Assembly (NCBI GenBank): GCA_030626185.1
Contig: DAOUPL010000001.1
Span: 1-36,614 of the forward strand
Origin: a bacterium
GTDB lineage: Bacteria > Babelota > Babeliae > Babelales > Vermiphilaceae
Direction of reading: 5' to 3'
Length of the DNA: 36,614 nucleotides
Shown piece after piece: positions 6,408 through 8,946 of the stretch. The notes beneath the pieces were generated by a model. The model did not search any database. It worked only from the letters and a program-made list of their open reading frames with translations, and was not told the origin of the DNA. Both the position numbers and the translations under genes were made by a program. Position 1 is the stretch's first letter. Every line of letters starts with the position of its first letter.

Positions 6408-7157
6408 TTGTTCACCTCATTTATTATTTTTCTTTGTTGGGGTTCTTTTTTAAATGTTGTAGGTTATCGCCTTATTCGTTCTATTGATCTTGTTTTTTTA
6501 CGCTCACGCTGTAATGCGTGCAAACAGACACTTACGTGGTACGATCTTATTCCCCTGCTTTCATGGTTATCGTTACGAGGCAAATGTCGTTACTGCAATG
6601 TGCCTATTTCTTTTTTGTATCCACTTATTGAGCTACTTACTGCAACAATGCTGACTGCGTTACTTGTTTATGTCCCAGAGGCTTATTTTTTTGCGTACGC
6701 GTTATTTTTTTCAGCGCTTATTGTCGTCATTCGTTCTGATTTAGAATCGATGCTTATTTCACGTTTTACGTCGCTCTATCTTGTGCCACTTGGTTGGTTG
6801 TTTGCACATCTAAAGATGATTCCATTGTCGTTATGGCAAAGTTTCACCATCTCAATTGGTGCATTTTTCTTTTTAACTGCAATTAGTTGGTTTTTCAATA
6901 AAGTAACGGGTAAACAAGGTATGGGCCAAGGAGACATTGATCTTTTTACACTCATTGGTGCGTTTACTGGCGTTGTTGGTTGTTGGTTTACGTTGTTATT
7001 TGCTTCGCTCACTGGTAGCGTTATTGGCATAGCTTATCTTTTATATACTAAACAACAAATCAATACCCGTATTCCGTTCGGTCCCTTTTTATCTTTTGGT
7101 GCAATGATTTATGTGTTGCACGCACCAACAATTATCAAATTATTGCTTACCAAATGA
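6408..7157 (+). CDS. pilD: Type IV prepilin peptidase / N-methyltransferase (A24 family)
   Basis: It has a Cys-rich N-terminal box, CNACKQTLTWYDLIPLLSWLSLRGKCRYCNVPISFLYPLIE. Catalytic Asp contexts are IRSDLES and GMGQGDIDLF. The protein is polytopic and starts at TTG. Confidence 0.85.
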   Translation: MFTSFIIFLCWGSFLNVVGYRLIRSIDLVFLRSRCNACKQTLTWYDLIPLLSWLSLRGKCRYCNVPISFLYPLIELLTATMLTALLVYVPEAYFFAYALFFSALIVVIRSDLESMLISRFTSLYLVPLGWLFAHLKMIPLSLWQSFTISIGAFFFLTAISWFFNKVTGKQGMGQGDIDLFTLIGAFTGVVGCWFTLLFASLTGSVIGIAYLLYTKQQINTRIPFGPFLSFGAMIYVLHAPTIIKLLLTK

Positions 7158-7375
7158 TCTAACCAATCGAAAATATAATCTTTTGCGATGGATTTCATCT
7201 CTTCGCCTGTAATCATTCTCTTCTTTTTTTTAGAGCTATTAGAAAAATCACTACATTTTTCATTTTTACAAATTTTTGATTCATAATTTGTAAACGACAA
7301 TATATATCGTCCTGGTTGCTCACTTGCAACAACCACATTACTCAAACAAATCAAAAGAAATAAAACAAACTTCAT
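7109..7375 (-). CDS. Small secreted hypothetical protein sharing its leader with the ankyrin gene
   Basis: 88-aa ORF beginning MKFVLFLLICLSNVVVAS. This is nearly identical, at DNA level too, to the leader of 7412..8281. AAGGA lies upstream. Its 3' end overlaps the pilD 3' end by 49 nt, so the true C-terminus is uncertain. Confidence 0.4.
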   Translation of the reverse strand: MKFVLFLLICLSNVVVASEQPGRYILSFTNYESKICKNEKCSDFSNSSKKKKRMITGEEMKSIAKDYIFDWLDHLVSNNLIIVGACNT

Positions 7376-7403
7376 ACAAATATTCCTTAATCAGCAAAAT
7401 CAC
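7321..7403 (-). repeat. Duplicated RBS-plus-signal-peptide cassette, copy 1
   Basis: It aligns without gaps to 8227..8309 (offset 906 bp) at about 85 percent identity. It covers 18 leader codons, AAGGA, and a relic TGTGATTTTGCTGATTAA that matches the pilin 3' end GATGATCTTGCTGATTAA. Confidence 0.9.
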
Positions 7404-7411
7404 AAAACCAT

Positions 7412-8281
7412 TTAAAGAATTATACAACAATCTTCTTGCGGTTGCGTTCTTATTGCACCATTTCTTCGTAACGTACTTATAATGCTTCCTCTATAACATG
7501 AAGACCAATTAAGAAACCTATTTACTGCGCGATAAAGGTCAACTTTATTCCCTGTGCGGCGTGAAATAAATGCTTCATCCGTAGAAGCGTTATTATTTAA
7601 TAATAACTCTATTAAAAGTGGATAACGATAATGAATCCGAATACAGGAAGCTAAAAGATTAAGACGATACGATCTATATCGAATCTGTCCTAAATTTACA
7701 TCTGCTCCATGATCTATTAAACATCGAATTAAATCAAATCTCTTTAAATTTAGCGTCACTGAACATGCCAAAAATAATGGAGTTAATTCACAATCTTTTT
7801 CGTCATCTTGTATTGTTTCATTTATTTCTGCGTTGTTGTCCAATAATAATTTTACTTTTTCAAGATAACCTTTTGCACAAGCCAACATTAATGGCGAATG
7901 TCCAGGACCATTTCTTACTGAAACATCAGCACCATTTTCTAACAACAATCTCACGCTATCAACTGAGCCATACTCACACATTAAGCTTAAAACTGTATCA
8001 CCAAAACGATTTGACTCATTAATCGTGTCTTTGATTGTGTCATCTTCTTCTAGGAAGTTTTGCAATTCAGCATAATCTCCATAACAACACATTCGCATTA
8101 AAAAAGTATTACCGTTCTCATCAATACCATTGTCGCCATCTGTTAATGGAGAAATATTATTTCTGAAATATTCTGGCCATTGTTTTGTCGAGTTTTCATC
8201 AAAATCATCTAACGGTATGTATTCATCACTTGCAACAACCACATTACTCAAACAGATCAACAAAAACAAAATAAACTTCAC
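7412..8281 (-). CDS. Ankyrin-repeat protein with signal peptide and C-terminal CaaX-like box
   Basis: There are at least 4 ANK repeats: GNTFLMRMCCYGDYAELQNFL, GDTVLSLMCEYGSVDSVRLLLENGADV, GHSPLMLACAKGYLEKVKLLLDNNAEIN and LTPLFLACS..LIRCLIDHGADVN. The leader is MKFILFLLICLSNVVVAS with a GTG start after AAGGAG. The protein ends ..EDCCIIL. Confidence 0.85.
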   Translation of the reverse strand: MKFILFLLICLSNVVVASDEYIPLDDFDENSTKQWPEYFRNNISPLTDGDNGIDENGNTFLMRMCCYGDYAELQNFLEEDDTIKDTINESNRFGDTVLSLMCEYGSVDSVRLLLENGADVSVRNGPGHSPLMLACAKGYLEKVKLLLDNNAEINETIQDDEKDCELTPLFLACSVTLNLKRFDLIRCLIDHGADVNLGQIRYRSYRLNLLASCIRIHYRYPLLIELLLNNNASTDEAFISRRTGNKVDLYRAVNRFLNWSSCYRGSIISTLRRNGAIRTQPQEDCCIIL

Positions 8282-8309
8282 AAAATCACTCCTTAATCAG
8301 CAAGATCAT
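8227..8309 (-). repeat. Duplicated RBS-plus-signal-peptide cassette, copy 2
   Basis: This is the partner of 7321..7403. It spans the ankyrin gene leader, its RBS and the last 5 codons plus stop of the pilin gene. Confidence 0.9.
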
Positions 8310-8772
8310 CATAAAAGACCATAATCTCGCCATCTTCATTAATCATTAAGATATCAGCGTTGCCATCGTTGTCAATGTCGCCAGCAGCTGCTGCGACAAA
8401 ACTATTTTTATTTGCATGCGTCATAGAGAGCGTTGATGCCGGTTCTTGTAACTTTCCGGTAAAATGTTGTGTGCCTTCAGCGCCACCAGAAAAACCATAC
8501 GTGTAATAAAAGTTTTCATCTTTTGTGCCACCTTTATACCCTTCTGGTTTCCAACCTGCACCTTTTTTACCAAACAACGTGGAGGTATACTCACCATTGT
8601 CAGCCCAGTAGGCTTTTTGTGCTACATAAATTGCATTTAAGTTCATATACGCTTCAGCCCGTTTTGATTTTGCTAAAAACCGCAAACCATTTGGCACAAC
8701 CAACATTGCAAGAAACGCAATAATCGCTACAACTACTATTAATTCAATAAGTGTAAAGCCTTTTTTCATCAT
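8293..8772 (-). CDS. Type IV pilin / pseudopilin-like protein with C-terminal DxDxDG motif
   Basis: The prepilin N-terminus is MMKKG/FTLIELIVVVAIIAFLAMLVVP, with Glu at +5. AGAGGA lies 7 nt upstream of ATG 8772, although the ORF opens at 8802. The C-terminus reads GDIDNDGNADILMINEDGEI. Confidence 0.85.
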   Translation of the reverse strand: MMKKGFTLIELIVVVAIIAFLAMLVVPNGLRFLAKSKRAEAYMNLNAIYVAQKAYWADNGEYTSTLFGKKGAGWKPEGYKGGTKDENFYYTYGFSGGAEGTQHFTGKLQEPASTLSMTHANKNSFVAAAAGDIDNDGNADILMINEDGEIMVFYDDLAD

Positions 8773-8946
8773 ACTCACATCCTCTTTCTTTTTTGTCAGC
8801 ATACCGCTAATACAATGCTAATCGTCAAGTTTTAGCTTGCTTTAAAGATGTTTGATAAAAAATATAAAAATCTAAATTGCCTAATTTTAGGTACAATGGT
8901 ATCTTTTAATCACTCATATAAACACAAAACGCTTTTCCACAGGATT

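What the first reader, a model, noticed from the sequence alone, without database searches (positions are those of the whole stretch)
7412..7429. Ankyrin-repeat protein ends in CCIIL, a eukaryotic CaaX geranylgeranylation box
The last four residues before the stop are C-I-I-L (codons 7424-7415 on the minus strand). This is Cys, two aliphatic residues, then Leu, the consensus for host geranylgeranyltransferase I. Legionella and other intravacuolar bacteria are known to use CaaX boxes to anchor effectors, including an ankyrin effector, to host membranes after host prenylation. Ankyrin repeats plus CaaX argue strongly that this protein acts inside a eukaryotic host. The N-terminal Sec-type leader is unusual for such effectors and raises the question of the export route.
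Basis: partly seen in the sequence, partly recalled or inferred. Interest (0 to 1): 0.6.

Follow-up and report, generated by a model that had tools for sequence, protein, structure and literature searches.

The report
Secreted ankyrin protein with host-lipidation tail
An exported ankyrin-repeat protein of an uncultured intracellular bacterium (Dependentiae) ends in CCIIL, the tail eukaryotic cells use to attach a lipid anchor; such tails recur far above chance in this and related genomes, so the host probably pins these proteins to its own membranes.

Summary
ORF 7412-8281 (-) encodes a 289-aa protein with a Sec-type leader, about six ankyrin repeats, an 8-residue polar linker and the tail C-C-I-I-L-stop. 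The CIIL codons are 7426-7415, not 7424-7415.

The tail is not chance. The only ortholog (72% identical, same gene order) ends CCVII. In this 67%-complete genome, 4 of 33 ankyrin proteins end in a canonical CaaX box, against 2 of 746 other proteins (p = 4e-5). Two of these tails carry K-Ras-like polybasic tracts.

Three related genomes show the same pattern:
- G064: 26 CaaX ends against 2.7 expected.
- A G024 sample: 10, against 0-3 at other offsets.
- G013: 7, against 0-5 (weak).

No prenyltransferase, VirB4-type T4SS ATPase or T3SS gate protein was found. Secretins, GspE/PilB ATPases and ATP/ADP translocases are present.

Best reading (0.65): the protein is exported by Sec, crosses the outer membrane by a secretin or in vesicles, and is geranylgeranylated by the host at Cys286, with Cys285 perhaps palmitoylated. 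It works like Legionella AnkB and the Pel effectors but is not a member of that family: it has no F-box, and it has a Sec leader rather than a T4SS signal. I found no paper linking Dependentiae and CaaX. Nothing has been tested experimentally.

The parts
7412..8281 (-). Gene for the 289-aa leader-ankyrin-CaaX protein (GTG start at 8281, TAA stop at 7414-7412)
8289..8294 (-). AAGGAG ribosome-binding site, 7 nt before the GTG start; it overlaps the stop codon of the upstream pilin-like gene (8293-8295), so co-transcription is likely
   Evidence: the same 12-nt pilin-Ank spacing occurs in ortholog locus L001
8228..8281 (-). Sec-type signal peptide, residues 1-18 (MKFILFLLICLSNVVVAS); predicted cleavage after VVA
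   Evidence: sequence inspection; 78% identical in the ortholog; SignalP not available
8114..8227 (-). Variable acidic N-terminal stretch of the mature protein, residues 19-56 (the 19-58 bin is 38% identical to the ortholog)
7454..8113 (-). About six ankyrin repeats, residues 57-276; the last, degenerate repeat (about residues 243-276, ending ...RRNGA) falls in the best conserved bin (residues 239-281, 95% identical to the ortholog)
   Evidence: Pfam; AF2 core pLDDT 70-90 for residues 70-160
7430..7453 (-). Eight-residue polar linker IRTQPQED between the last repeat and the Cys pair
7415..7429 (-). C285-C286-I-I-L. The CaaX box is C286-I-I-L (7426-7415), of the GGTase-I type because X = L. C285 is a possible second, S-acylation, site
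   Evidence: rule from established knowledge of CaaX prenyltransferases
8293..8802 (-). Upstream pilin/pseudopilin-like gene (N_methyl motif), directly coupled to the ankyrin gene
6408..7157 (+). Prepilin peptidase (Peptidase_A24 with its N-terminal domain), part of the type II secretion / type IV pilus machinery that is the candidate outer-membrane export route
   Evidence: secretins and GspE/PilB ATPases elsewhere in the genome
7109..7375 (-). Downstream 88-aa ORF with a nearly identical leader (MKFVLFLLICLSNVVVAS) and no CaaX box; the leader-plus-RBS cassette is duplicated (7320-7402 vs 8226-8308, 87% identical)

Best explanation
The gene encodes an effector of an obligate intracellular, protist-associated bacterium (Dependentiae-like).

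Shown by sequence: the gene is translationally coupled to a pilin-like gene. The product has a Sec-type leader, about six ankyrin repeats, a short polar linker and the tail CCIIL.

Inferred mechanism:
1. Sec exports the protein and signal peptidase I cuts after VVA.
2. The mature protein leaves the periplasm through the genome's type II secretion / type IV pilus secretin apparatus or in outer-membrane vesicles, and reaches the host cytosol.
3. Host geranylgeranyltransferase I reads C286-I-I-L and attaches a C20 isoprenoid to Cys286. Host Rce1 and ICMT then trim and methylate the end, and Cys285 may be S-palmitoylated as a second membrane signal.
4. The lipid anchor fixes the ankyrin domain on the cytosolic face of a host membrane, where it binds an unknown host partner.

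The protein is one of a set of leader-plus-CaaX proteins that this lineage uses in this way.
For: - The tail, the ankyrin repeats and the leader are confirmed.
- The ortholog keeps C-a-a-X (CCVII), with ED-CC invariant, although residues 19-58 are only 38% identical.
- In G000, 4 of 33 ankyrin proteins end in CaaX against 2 of 746 others, p = 3.8e-5. All six CaaX proteins have leader-like N-termini, against 31% of the proteome.
- The tails copy eukaryotic two-signal anchors. KKKKKKGRCSIM, KKKNTGCCSIL and KPKKRRCKIL are polybasic; CCIIL and CCSIL have an adjacent Cys. An adjacent Cys or polybasic tract occurs in 22 of 52 CaaX tails against 12% of other proteins, p = 5e-8.
- Related genomes show a position-specific excess at exactly -4. 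G064 has 26 against 2.7 expected, with other offsets at 0-6 (Poisson 4e-17); 21 of its 29 CaaX proteins (looser a1 pattern) are ankyrin proteins, and one ends in CVLC, the same box as AnkB. A 231-kb G024 sample has 10 against 0-3. G013 has 7 against 0-5.
- The linkers before the Cys are enriched in S, P, G and A and depleted in hydrophobic residues.
- None of 235 unrelated ankyrin proteins from the global database has a canonical box, apart from one that is itself from G064.
- ATP/ADP translocases are present, which marks an intracellular energy parasite.
- Two secretins plus GspE/PilB and PilT ATPases are present, and no VirB4 or FHIPEP homolog is found.
- Precedent: Legionella AnkB and the Pel effectors are prenylated by the host at CaaX (PMC2916131, PMC13081727).
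Against: - There is no experimental evidence of any kind: no proof of secretion beyond the periplasm, of host-cytosol delivery or of lipidation.
- Passage through an oxidising periplasm with 11 cysteines, and the step from periplasm to host cytosol, have no known mechanism here.
- G000's whole-proteome excess is weak on its own: 5 against 1.0-1.7 expected, and other offsets also reach 5.
- Counts in G064 are inflated by paralogy.
- ORFs and signal peptides were called with crude home-made heuristics.
- The ortholog's X is Ile, a poorer GGTase-I determinant than Leu.
- The AF2 model is poor (pLDDT 53), so accessibility of the tail is not shown.
- The PF00432 search had no positive control, so absence of a bacterial prenyltransferase is not proven.
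- A phylum-wide DNA-pattern scan for polybasic-CaaX-stop gave only noise.
Confidence: 0.65

Rival explanations
1. The tail is functional inside the host but is read by a different lipidation system. The Cys pair next to a hydrophobic end would be S-acylated by host DHHC palmitoyltransferases without prior prenylation.
For: Cys doublets are common in these tails: CCIIL, CCSIL, CCMQ, CCLQ and CCCSLF. S-acylation needs no strict motif.
Against: The excess is strictly position-specific, with Cys at -4 followed by an aliphatic a2 and a permitted X. That is the reading frame of the CaaX prenyltransferases, not of DHHC enzymes. Many tails have a single Cys, for example CSIM, CVMM, CKIL, CILF and CLLS.
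Confidence: 0.07
2. The box is read by the bacterium itself. It would serve own lipidation, C-terminal processing or sorting of Sec-exported proteins in the envelope, so the protein would act at the bacterial surface or in the periplasm.
For: All carriers have Sec leaders. An earlier scan note (e1-2135331) raised self-prenylation using an own mevalonate pathway. Periplasmic ankyrin proteins exist in other bacteria (cited in PMC6561590).
Against: No homolog of the protein prenyltransferase alpha (PF01239) or beta (PF00432) subunit is found in G000, G013 or G064. No bacterial system that reads a C-terminal C-a-a-X is known. Polybasic-plus-CaaX and CC-aaX tails are copies of eukaryotic small-GTPase anchors that bind the acidic cytosolic leaflet. 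No transmembrane or sorting helix follows the Cys.
Confidence: 0.08
3. For this particular protein the CaaX-like ending is a neutral accident of a Cys-rich protein (11 Cys in 289 residues) with a hydrophobic end.
For: By chance 1-3 proteins per genome end in such a motif. G000's proteome-wide excess is not significant alone. Only one ortholog exists to judge conservation.
Against: Expected chance hits among the 33 ankyrin proteins number 0.11, against 4 observed. The tail class is kept in the ortholog while the neighbouring residues P281 and Q282 changed. The same architecture recurs in three other genomes.
Confidence: 0.05

Closest known systems
Legionella pneumophila AnkB (F-box / ankyrin / CaaX 'CVLC') and the Pel/CMP prenylated effectors (PMC2916131, PMC13081727)
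   Same: A bacterial protein of an intracellular parasite of protists, with ankyrin repeats followed by a short linker and a C-terminal CaaX box. In Legionella, host FTase/GGTase-I lipidates the Cys and anchors the effector on the cytosolic face of host membranes. One G064 ankyrin protein even ends in the identical CVLC.
   Different: There is no F-box (Pfam) and no sequence relationship beyond generic ankyrin repeats. It has a cleavable Sec leader instead of a Dot/Icm signal, and no VirB4-type T4SS ATPase is found in the genome. X = L predicts geranylgeranylation rather than farnesylation. The repertoire is much denser in relatives: at least 26 per roughly 1350 ORFs in G064, against 7-11 per Legionella genome.
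Salmonella enterica SifA (C-terminal CLCCFL; from my own knowledge, Reinicke et al. 2005)
   Same: A CC-containing CaaX-type end (CCFL) that the host geranylgeranylates, with S-acylation of a neighbouring Cys. This is the same two-lipid logic proposed for CCIIL.
   Different: SifA is delivered by a type III system, is not an ankyrin protein and has no signal peptide.
Eukaryotic two-signal CaaX anchors: RhoB (CCKVL), Ral (CCIL/CCLL), Ykt6 (CCIIM/CCAIM), K-Ras4B (K6...CVIM); recalled from established literature, not retrieved here
   Same: The tail CCIIL is of the same form as these anchors. Sibling proteins in the genome copy the K-Ras/Rho polybasic form: KKKKKKGRCSIM and KPKKRRCKIL.
   Different: These are host proteins made in the cytosol. 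The bacterial protein must first cross two bacterial membranes.
Signal-peptide-bearing ankyrin proteins of cultured Dependentiae (Chromulinavorax destructans, Babela massiliensis; PMC6561590)
   Same: Same phylum-level lifestyle and architecture. In Chromulinavorax, 78% of 98 ankyrin proteins carry signal peptides, and only Sec-type export was reported.
   Different: That paper does not mention prenylation ('prenyl' occurs 0 times). No paper in the searched library combines Dependentiae with CaaX.

Membership tests
Eukaryote-type CaaX prenylation substrate (GGTase-I class) | Cysteine exactly four residues from the C-terminus | tested here: met
   C286 at -4, followed by TAA; kept in the ortholog
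Eukaryote-type CaaX prenylation substrate (GGTase-I class) | a1 and a2 aliphatic (a2 especially I/V/L), with X = L or F for GGTase-I | tested here: met
   The box is C-I-I-L. The ortholog has C-V-I-I, where X = I is a weaker GGTase-I determinant
Eukaryote-type CaaX prenylation substrate (GGTase-I class) | Flexible, solvent-exposed polar linker before the box | tested here: inconclusive
   The linker IRTQPQED is polar and contains Pro. Pooled linkers in G064 are rich in S, P, G and A. The AF2 model is too poor (pLDDT below 50 for residues 196-289) to show accessibility. PrePS is not available
Eukaryote-type CaaX prenylation substrate (GGTase-I class) | Physical access to cytosolic prenyltransferase, and actual thioether lipidation | not testable with these tools
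   Needs expression or labelling experiments
Legionella AnkB / Pel prenylated effector group | F-box domain (AnkB) | tested here: not met
   Pfam finds only ankyrin families
Legionella AnkB / Pel prenylated effector group | Translocation by a Dot/Icm type IV system | tested here: not met
   The protein has a Sec leader. No VirB4-family ATPase (PF03135) is found in G000, G013 or G064. Dot/Icm-specific families were not searched individually
Legionella AnkB / Pel prenylated effector group | C-terminal CaaX on a protein of an intracellular bacterium | tested here: met
   (ATP/ADP translocases indicate an intracellular lifestyle)
Sec/SPase I secreted protein | Basic n-region, hydrophobic h-region, small residues at -3/-1, and no further transmembrane segment | tested here: met
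   The leader is MK-FILFLLICLSNVV-VA|S. My hydropathy heuristic finds no later transmembrane segment. This rests on inspection and a crude heuristic only; SignalP was not run
Ankyrin-repeat protein (Pfam clan Ank) | Matches above the gathering score to Ank_2, Ank, Ank_3, Ank_4 and Ank_5 | tested here: met
   Ank_2 85.8 bits against a cut-off of 27.3

The most novel reading that the evidence does not exclude
In Dependentiae, 'Sec leader + C-terminal CaaX' may be a general two-part address. The leader takes an effector out of the bacterium, with no injection apparatus. The CaaX box, often with a Ras- or Rho-like second signal, then has the host lipidate it and sort it to a chosen host membrane. 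In some genomes about 2% of all ORFs carry such tails, which would be the densest prenylation-mimic repertoire known in bacteria. This implies an undescribed route from the periplasm into the host cytosol.
Probability: 0.45. Interest if true: 0.75.

Novelty: new variant of a known kind. Interest (0 to 1): 0.6.

Why it matters
Host prenylation of bacterial effectors is established only for proteins injected by type III or IV systems (Legionella AnkB and the Pels, Salmonella SifA).

Here the same eukaryotic address label sits on proteins with ordinary Sec leaders, in a phylum where I found no VirB4-type T4SS ATPase and no T3SS gate protein. It recurs at high density in several genomes.

If the tails are really read by host enzymes, they are direct evidence that Sec-exported Dependentiae proteins reach the host cytosol. 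That turns the open question of how these common but barely studied parasites of protists deliver effectors into something testable. CaaX-tagged proteins would mark true cytosolic effectors. A Cys-to-Ser mutation or a prenylation inhibitor is a simple test, and X-residue preferences (Q, S and M against L and F) may reflect host range.

It also gives a sequence-only rule for picking effectors out of the very large 'secreted ORFan/ankyrin' sets of these genomes.

Tried and rejected
- **Phylum-wide DNA pattern.** I searched 261 genomes for AAAAARAAR-N{0,12}-TGY-NNN-NTN-NTN-TAR. In-frame spacings were not enriched, and none of the 30 fetched loci ended an ORF of 60 aa or more. The pattern is noise-dominated in AT-rich DNA and I dropped it.
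- **More orthologs.** The search for related loci in metagenome contigs and genome contigs with the two-sequence alignment gave no further orthologs. The 40 nearest GTDB relatives have only generic ankyrin hits.
- **Structure.** An AF2 model from a two-sequence alignment was poor (mean pLDDT 53). It says nothing about the C-terminal third, so I ran no fold search.
- **Homologs of another CaaX protein.** C49:3202-4341 (...EKCLIQ) has no homolog at all, so its tail conservation cannot be judged.
- **Self-prenylation.** I considered it and rejected it as the main reading, because no PF00432 or PF01239 homolog was found. Caveat: the PF00432 search had no positive control.
- **AnkB family membership.** Rejected: no F-box, and no T4SS marker was found.

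Full report
**1. Observation**

The ORF listing and the minus-strand sequence show an ORF at window 7412-8281 (-), 289 aa, ending ...GAIRTQPQEDCCIIL-TAA. The codons are:
- C285 7429-7427
- C286 7426-7424
- I287 7423-7421
- I288 7420-7418
- L289 7417-7415
- stop 7414-7412

Its sub-range for C-I-I-L is 2 nt short.

Pfam gives only ankyrin families (Ank_2 E = 3e-24). By eye there are about six repeats (residues 57-276). The last one is degenerate and ends ...RRNGA. An 8-residue polar linker (IRTQPQED) and CCIIL follow it.

The N-terminus MKFILFLLICLSNVVVA|SDEY is a textbook Sec/SPase I leader. The GTG start at 8281 has an AAGGAG site 7 nt upstream, which overlaps the stop codon of the preceding pilin-like gene. 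The two genes are therefore very probably co-transcribed.

**2. Organism**

The window is contig C23 of a 756-kb, 71-contig, 35% GC assembly that is 67% complete.
- All 261 genomes of its phylum in the held collection fall in one order.
- Earlier notes of this scan call it Dependentiae. I did not verify the name independently, but several features fit. The genome is small. About 31% of ORFs have leader-like N-termini. It encodes about 33 ankyrin proteins.
- TLC-type ATP/ADP translocases are present in G000, G013 and G064 and absent from 14 control genomes.
- Each of the three genomes has two secretins and GspE/PilB plus PilT ATPases. A prepilin peptidase lies 250 bp from the gene.
- No VirB4-type (PF03135) or FHIPEP (T3SS/flagellar) homolog was found.
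- For Chromulinavorax, the literature reports Sec as the export system, 44% of CDS and 78% of ankyrin proteins with signal peptides, a cytoplasmic replication site and budding vesicles (PMC6561590).

**3. Is the tail conserved?**

Only one ortholog exists in 5.8 billion proteins. This is P0002: 72% identical, 291 aa, on a Logan contig with the same Sua5-hyp-pilin-Ank order. It ends HEDCCVII.

Identity by region:

| Region | Identity |
|---|---|
| Leader | 78% |
| Residues 19-58 | 38% |
| Ankyrin core | 76% |
| Residues 239-281 | 95% (6 synonymous, 2 non-synonymous changes) |

In the tail, P281S and Q282H changed. E-D-C-C is invariant. I287V and L289I are conservative. The C-a-a-X class is kept while the sequence around it drifts. 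A strain variant (the representative of cluster P0001) differs by Q282K and keeps CCIIL. Searches of metagenome and genome contigs gave no further orthologs.

**4. Is it more than chance within the genome?**

I made a crude greedy longest-ORF set (806 ORFs, 88% coding).
- With a canonical pattern, 5 C-terminal matches are found against 1.0-1.7 expected. Other offsets occasionally also reach 5. The proteome-wide excess alone is therefore weak.
- The carriers are not random. All six have leader-like N-termini.
- Four are ankyrin proteins by Pfam:

| Protein | Tail |
|---|---|
| C23 (this protein) | CCIIL |
| C24:8361-9188 | ...SDSQDNQKKTENWSCVMM |
| C71:1444-2310 | ...DIPLKKKKKKGRCSIM |
| C71:744-1364 (its tandem paralog) | ...ILKKKNTGCCSIL |

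- The other two are orphans: C40:3783-4118 (...KVKPKKRRCKIL) and C49:3202-4341 (...LPEKCLIQ).
- The association with ankyrin repeats is 4 of 33 against 2 of 746. Fisher gives p = 3.8e-5. The binomial against the motif's internal frequency gives 5e-6, or 2e-4 if the paralog pair counts once.
- Of 235 ankyrin proteins retrieved from the global database by two searches (own and orthologous sequences excluded), only one has a canonical box. That one (P0217...PSCVLC) lies on the chromosome of another genome of the same order, G064.

**5. Related genomes**

I rebuilt G064 from 20-kb pieces. It is OY970169.1, MAG MFD02248.bin.2.92, 1,417,897 bp, from a different family.
- 26 ORFs end in the strict pattern against 2.7 expected, while offsets 5-23 give 0-6 (Poisson 4e-17).
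- With a looser a1 position there are 29 carriers. 21 of them are among 154 ankyrin proteins.
- Nearly all full-length carriers start with a leader. Tails include CCMQ/CCLQ (12), CILF (3), CLLS, CLLF, CVLQ, CIMQ and CVLC.
- Aligned from the C-terminus, position -4 is invariant, -2 is L/M and -1 is mostly Q/F. Positions -7 and further back are highly variable. The linker is enriched in S, P, G and A and depleted in hydrophobic residues.

A 231-kb sample of G024 (same family as the window) gives 10 against 0-3 at other offsets. It includes an ankyrin protein ending ...KKEKKTEKCKIL.

G013 (same family, ankyrin-poor) gives 7 against 0-5, with a recurring SSC[SVT]IS end on leader proteins. This is suggestive only.

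Pooled over the four genomes, 22 of 52 CaaX tails have an adjacent Cys or at least 4 K/R upstream, against 12% of other proteins (p = 5e-8, with the paralogy caveat). These are the two classical 'second signals' of Ras/Rho anchors.

Earlier notes of this scan report the same theme in at least 7 other Dependentiae genomes. I treat these as leads, not evidence.

**6. Who reads the box?**

No homolog of the protein prenyltransferase beta (PF00432) or alpha (PF01239) subunit is found in G000, G013 or G064. The PF00432 search had no ringing control, so this is absence of evidence. The only known machinery that reads Cys at -4 from a free C-terminus is eukaryotic FTase/GGTase-I.

**7. Mechanism proposed**

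*Shown:* architecture, operon coupling, conservation and enrichment.

*Inferred:*
- Sec export and leader cleavage.
- Exit through the T2SS/T4P-type secretin apparatus or in vesicles.
- Arrival in the host cytosol.
- Geranylgeranylation of C286 by host GGTase-I (X = L), followed by -IIL removal and carboxyl-methylation.
- Possible palmitoylation of C285.
- Membrane-anchored ankyrin domain binding a host target.

Confidence is 0.65. The main gap is the periplasm-to-cytosol step, together with the complete lack of experimental data.

**8. Comparison with what is known**

It works like Legionella AnkB and the Pel effectors (PMC2916131, PMC13081727) and like Salmonella SifA (my own knowledge). It is not a member of the AnkB family:
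- It has no F-box.
- It has no homology beyond generic repeats.
- It has a Sec leader instead of Dot/Icm-dependent delivery.

The full-text library holds no paper combining Dependentiae with CaaX, and no relevant paper combining TM6 with prenylation. The Chromulinavorax paper does not mention prenylation.

I therefore class it as a new variant of a known kind: host-prenylation mimicry coupled to Sec-type export, in a new phylum.

**9. Caveats**

- ORF calling and leader detection are home-made heuristics.
- Paralogy inflates the counts.
- G000 is incomplete.
- The polybasic DNA-pattern scan was uninformative.
- The AF2 model was poor.

Noticed in passing
window 7320-7402 and 8226-8308: An 83-nt cassette is duplicated 906 bp apart at 87% identity. 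It holds the RBS, the first 18 codons of the leader and the relic 3' end of the pilin gene. It heads both the ankyrin gene and an unrelated 88-aa ORF (7109-7375).
   Followed up: partly
G000 C71:122-2310 (outside the window): Three tandem leader-ankyrin paralogs. Two end in polybasic CaaX (KKKKKKGRCSIM, KKKNTGCCSIL) and the third ends ...NLLSDII. In another strain a 248-aa chimera (P0122) joins the N-terminus of the first paralog to the C-terminus of the second and keeps CCSIL, which indicates recombination between the paralogs.
   Followed up: partly
G064 (loci L046-L116), e.g. 916162-937472; G024 sample (L172-L183): Many leader-ankyrin proteins have a conserved Met-Glu right after the leader: ...ANTQC-MEQP, ...YA-MEP, ...HG-MKRK, ...NG-MEQPEP. 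This could be a conserved mature N-terminus or sorting motif, or an alternative internal start that would give a leaderless isoform. It is not present in the window's protein.
   Followed up: no
G064:C1:816883-817866 (P0217, locus L184): A leader-ankyrin protein that ends in CVLC, the same tetrapeptide as the farnesylated box of Legionella AnkB.
   Followed up: partly
G013:C1:764698-765845: A GspE/PilB-type ATPase gene interrupted by in-frame TGA, TAG and TAA stops. It is either a pseudogene or an assembly error; a second, PilT-like copy is intact.
   Followed up: no
G000 C40:3783-4118: A 111-aa orphan with a lipoprotein-like leader (...SGAAFG-C) and a Rho-like polybasic tail KPKKRRCKIL. An N-terminal bacterial lipobox and a C-terminal eukaryotic CaaX box on the same small protein is an odd combination.
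   Followed up: no
window 8293-8802 and locus L001 2045-2521: The pilin-like gene (N_methyl motif plus an FG-GAP-like C-terminus) sits directly upstream of the ankyrin gene in both the window and the ortholog contig, 11-12 nt apart. The conserved pairing may link the effector to the pilus/T2SS apparatus.
   Followed up: partly
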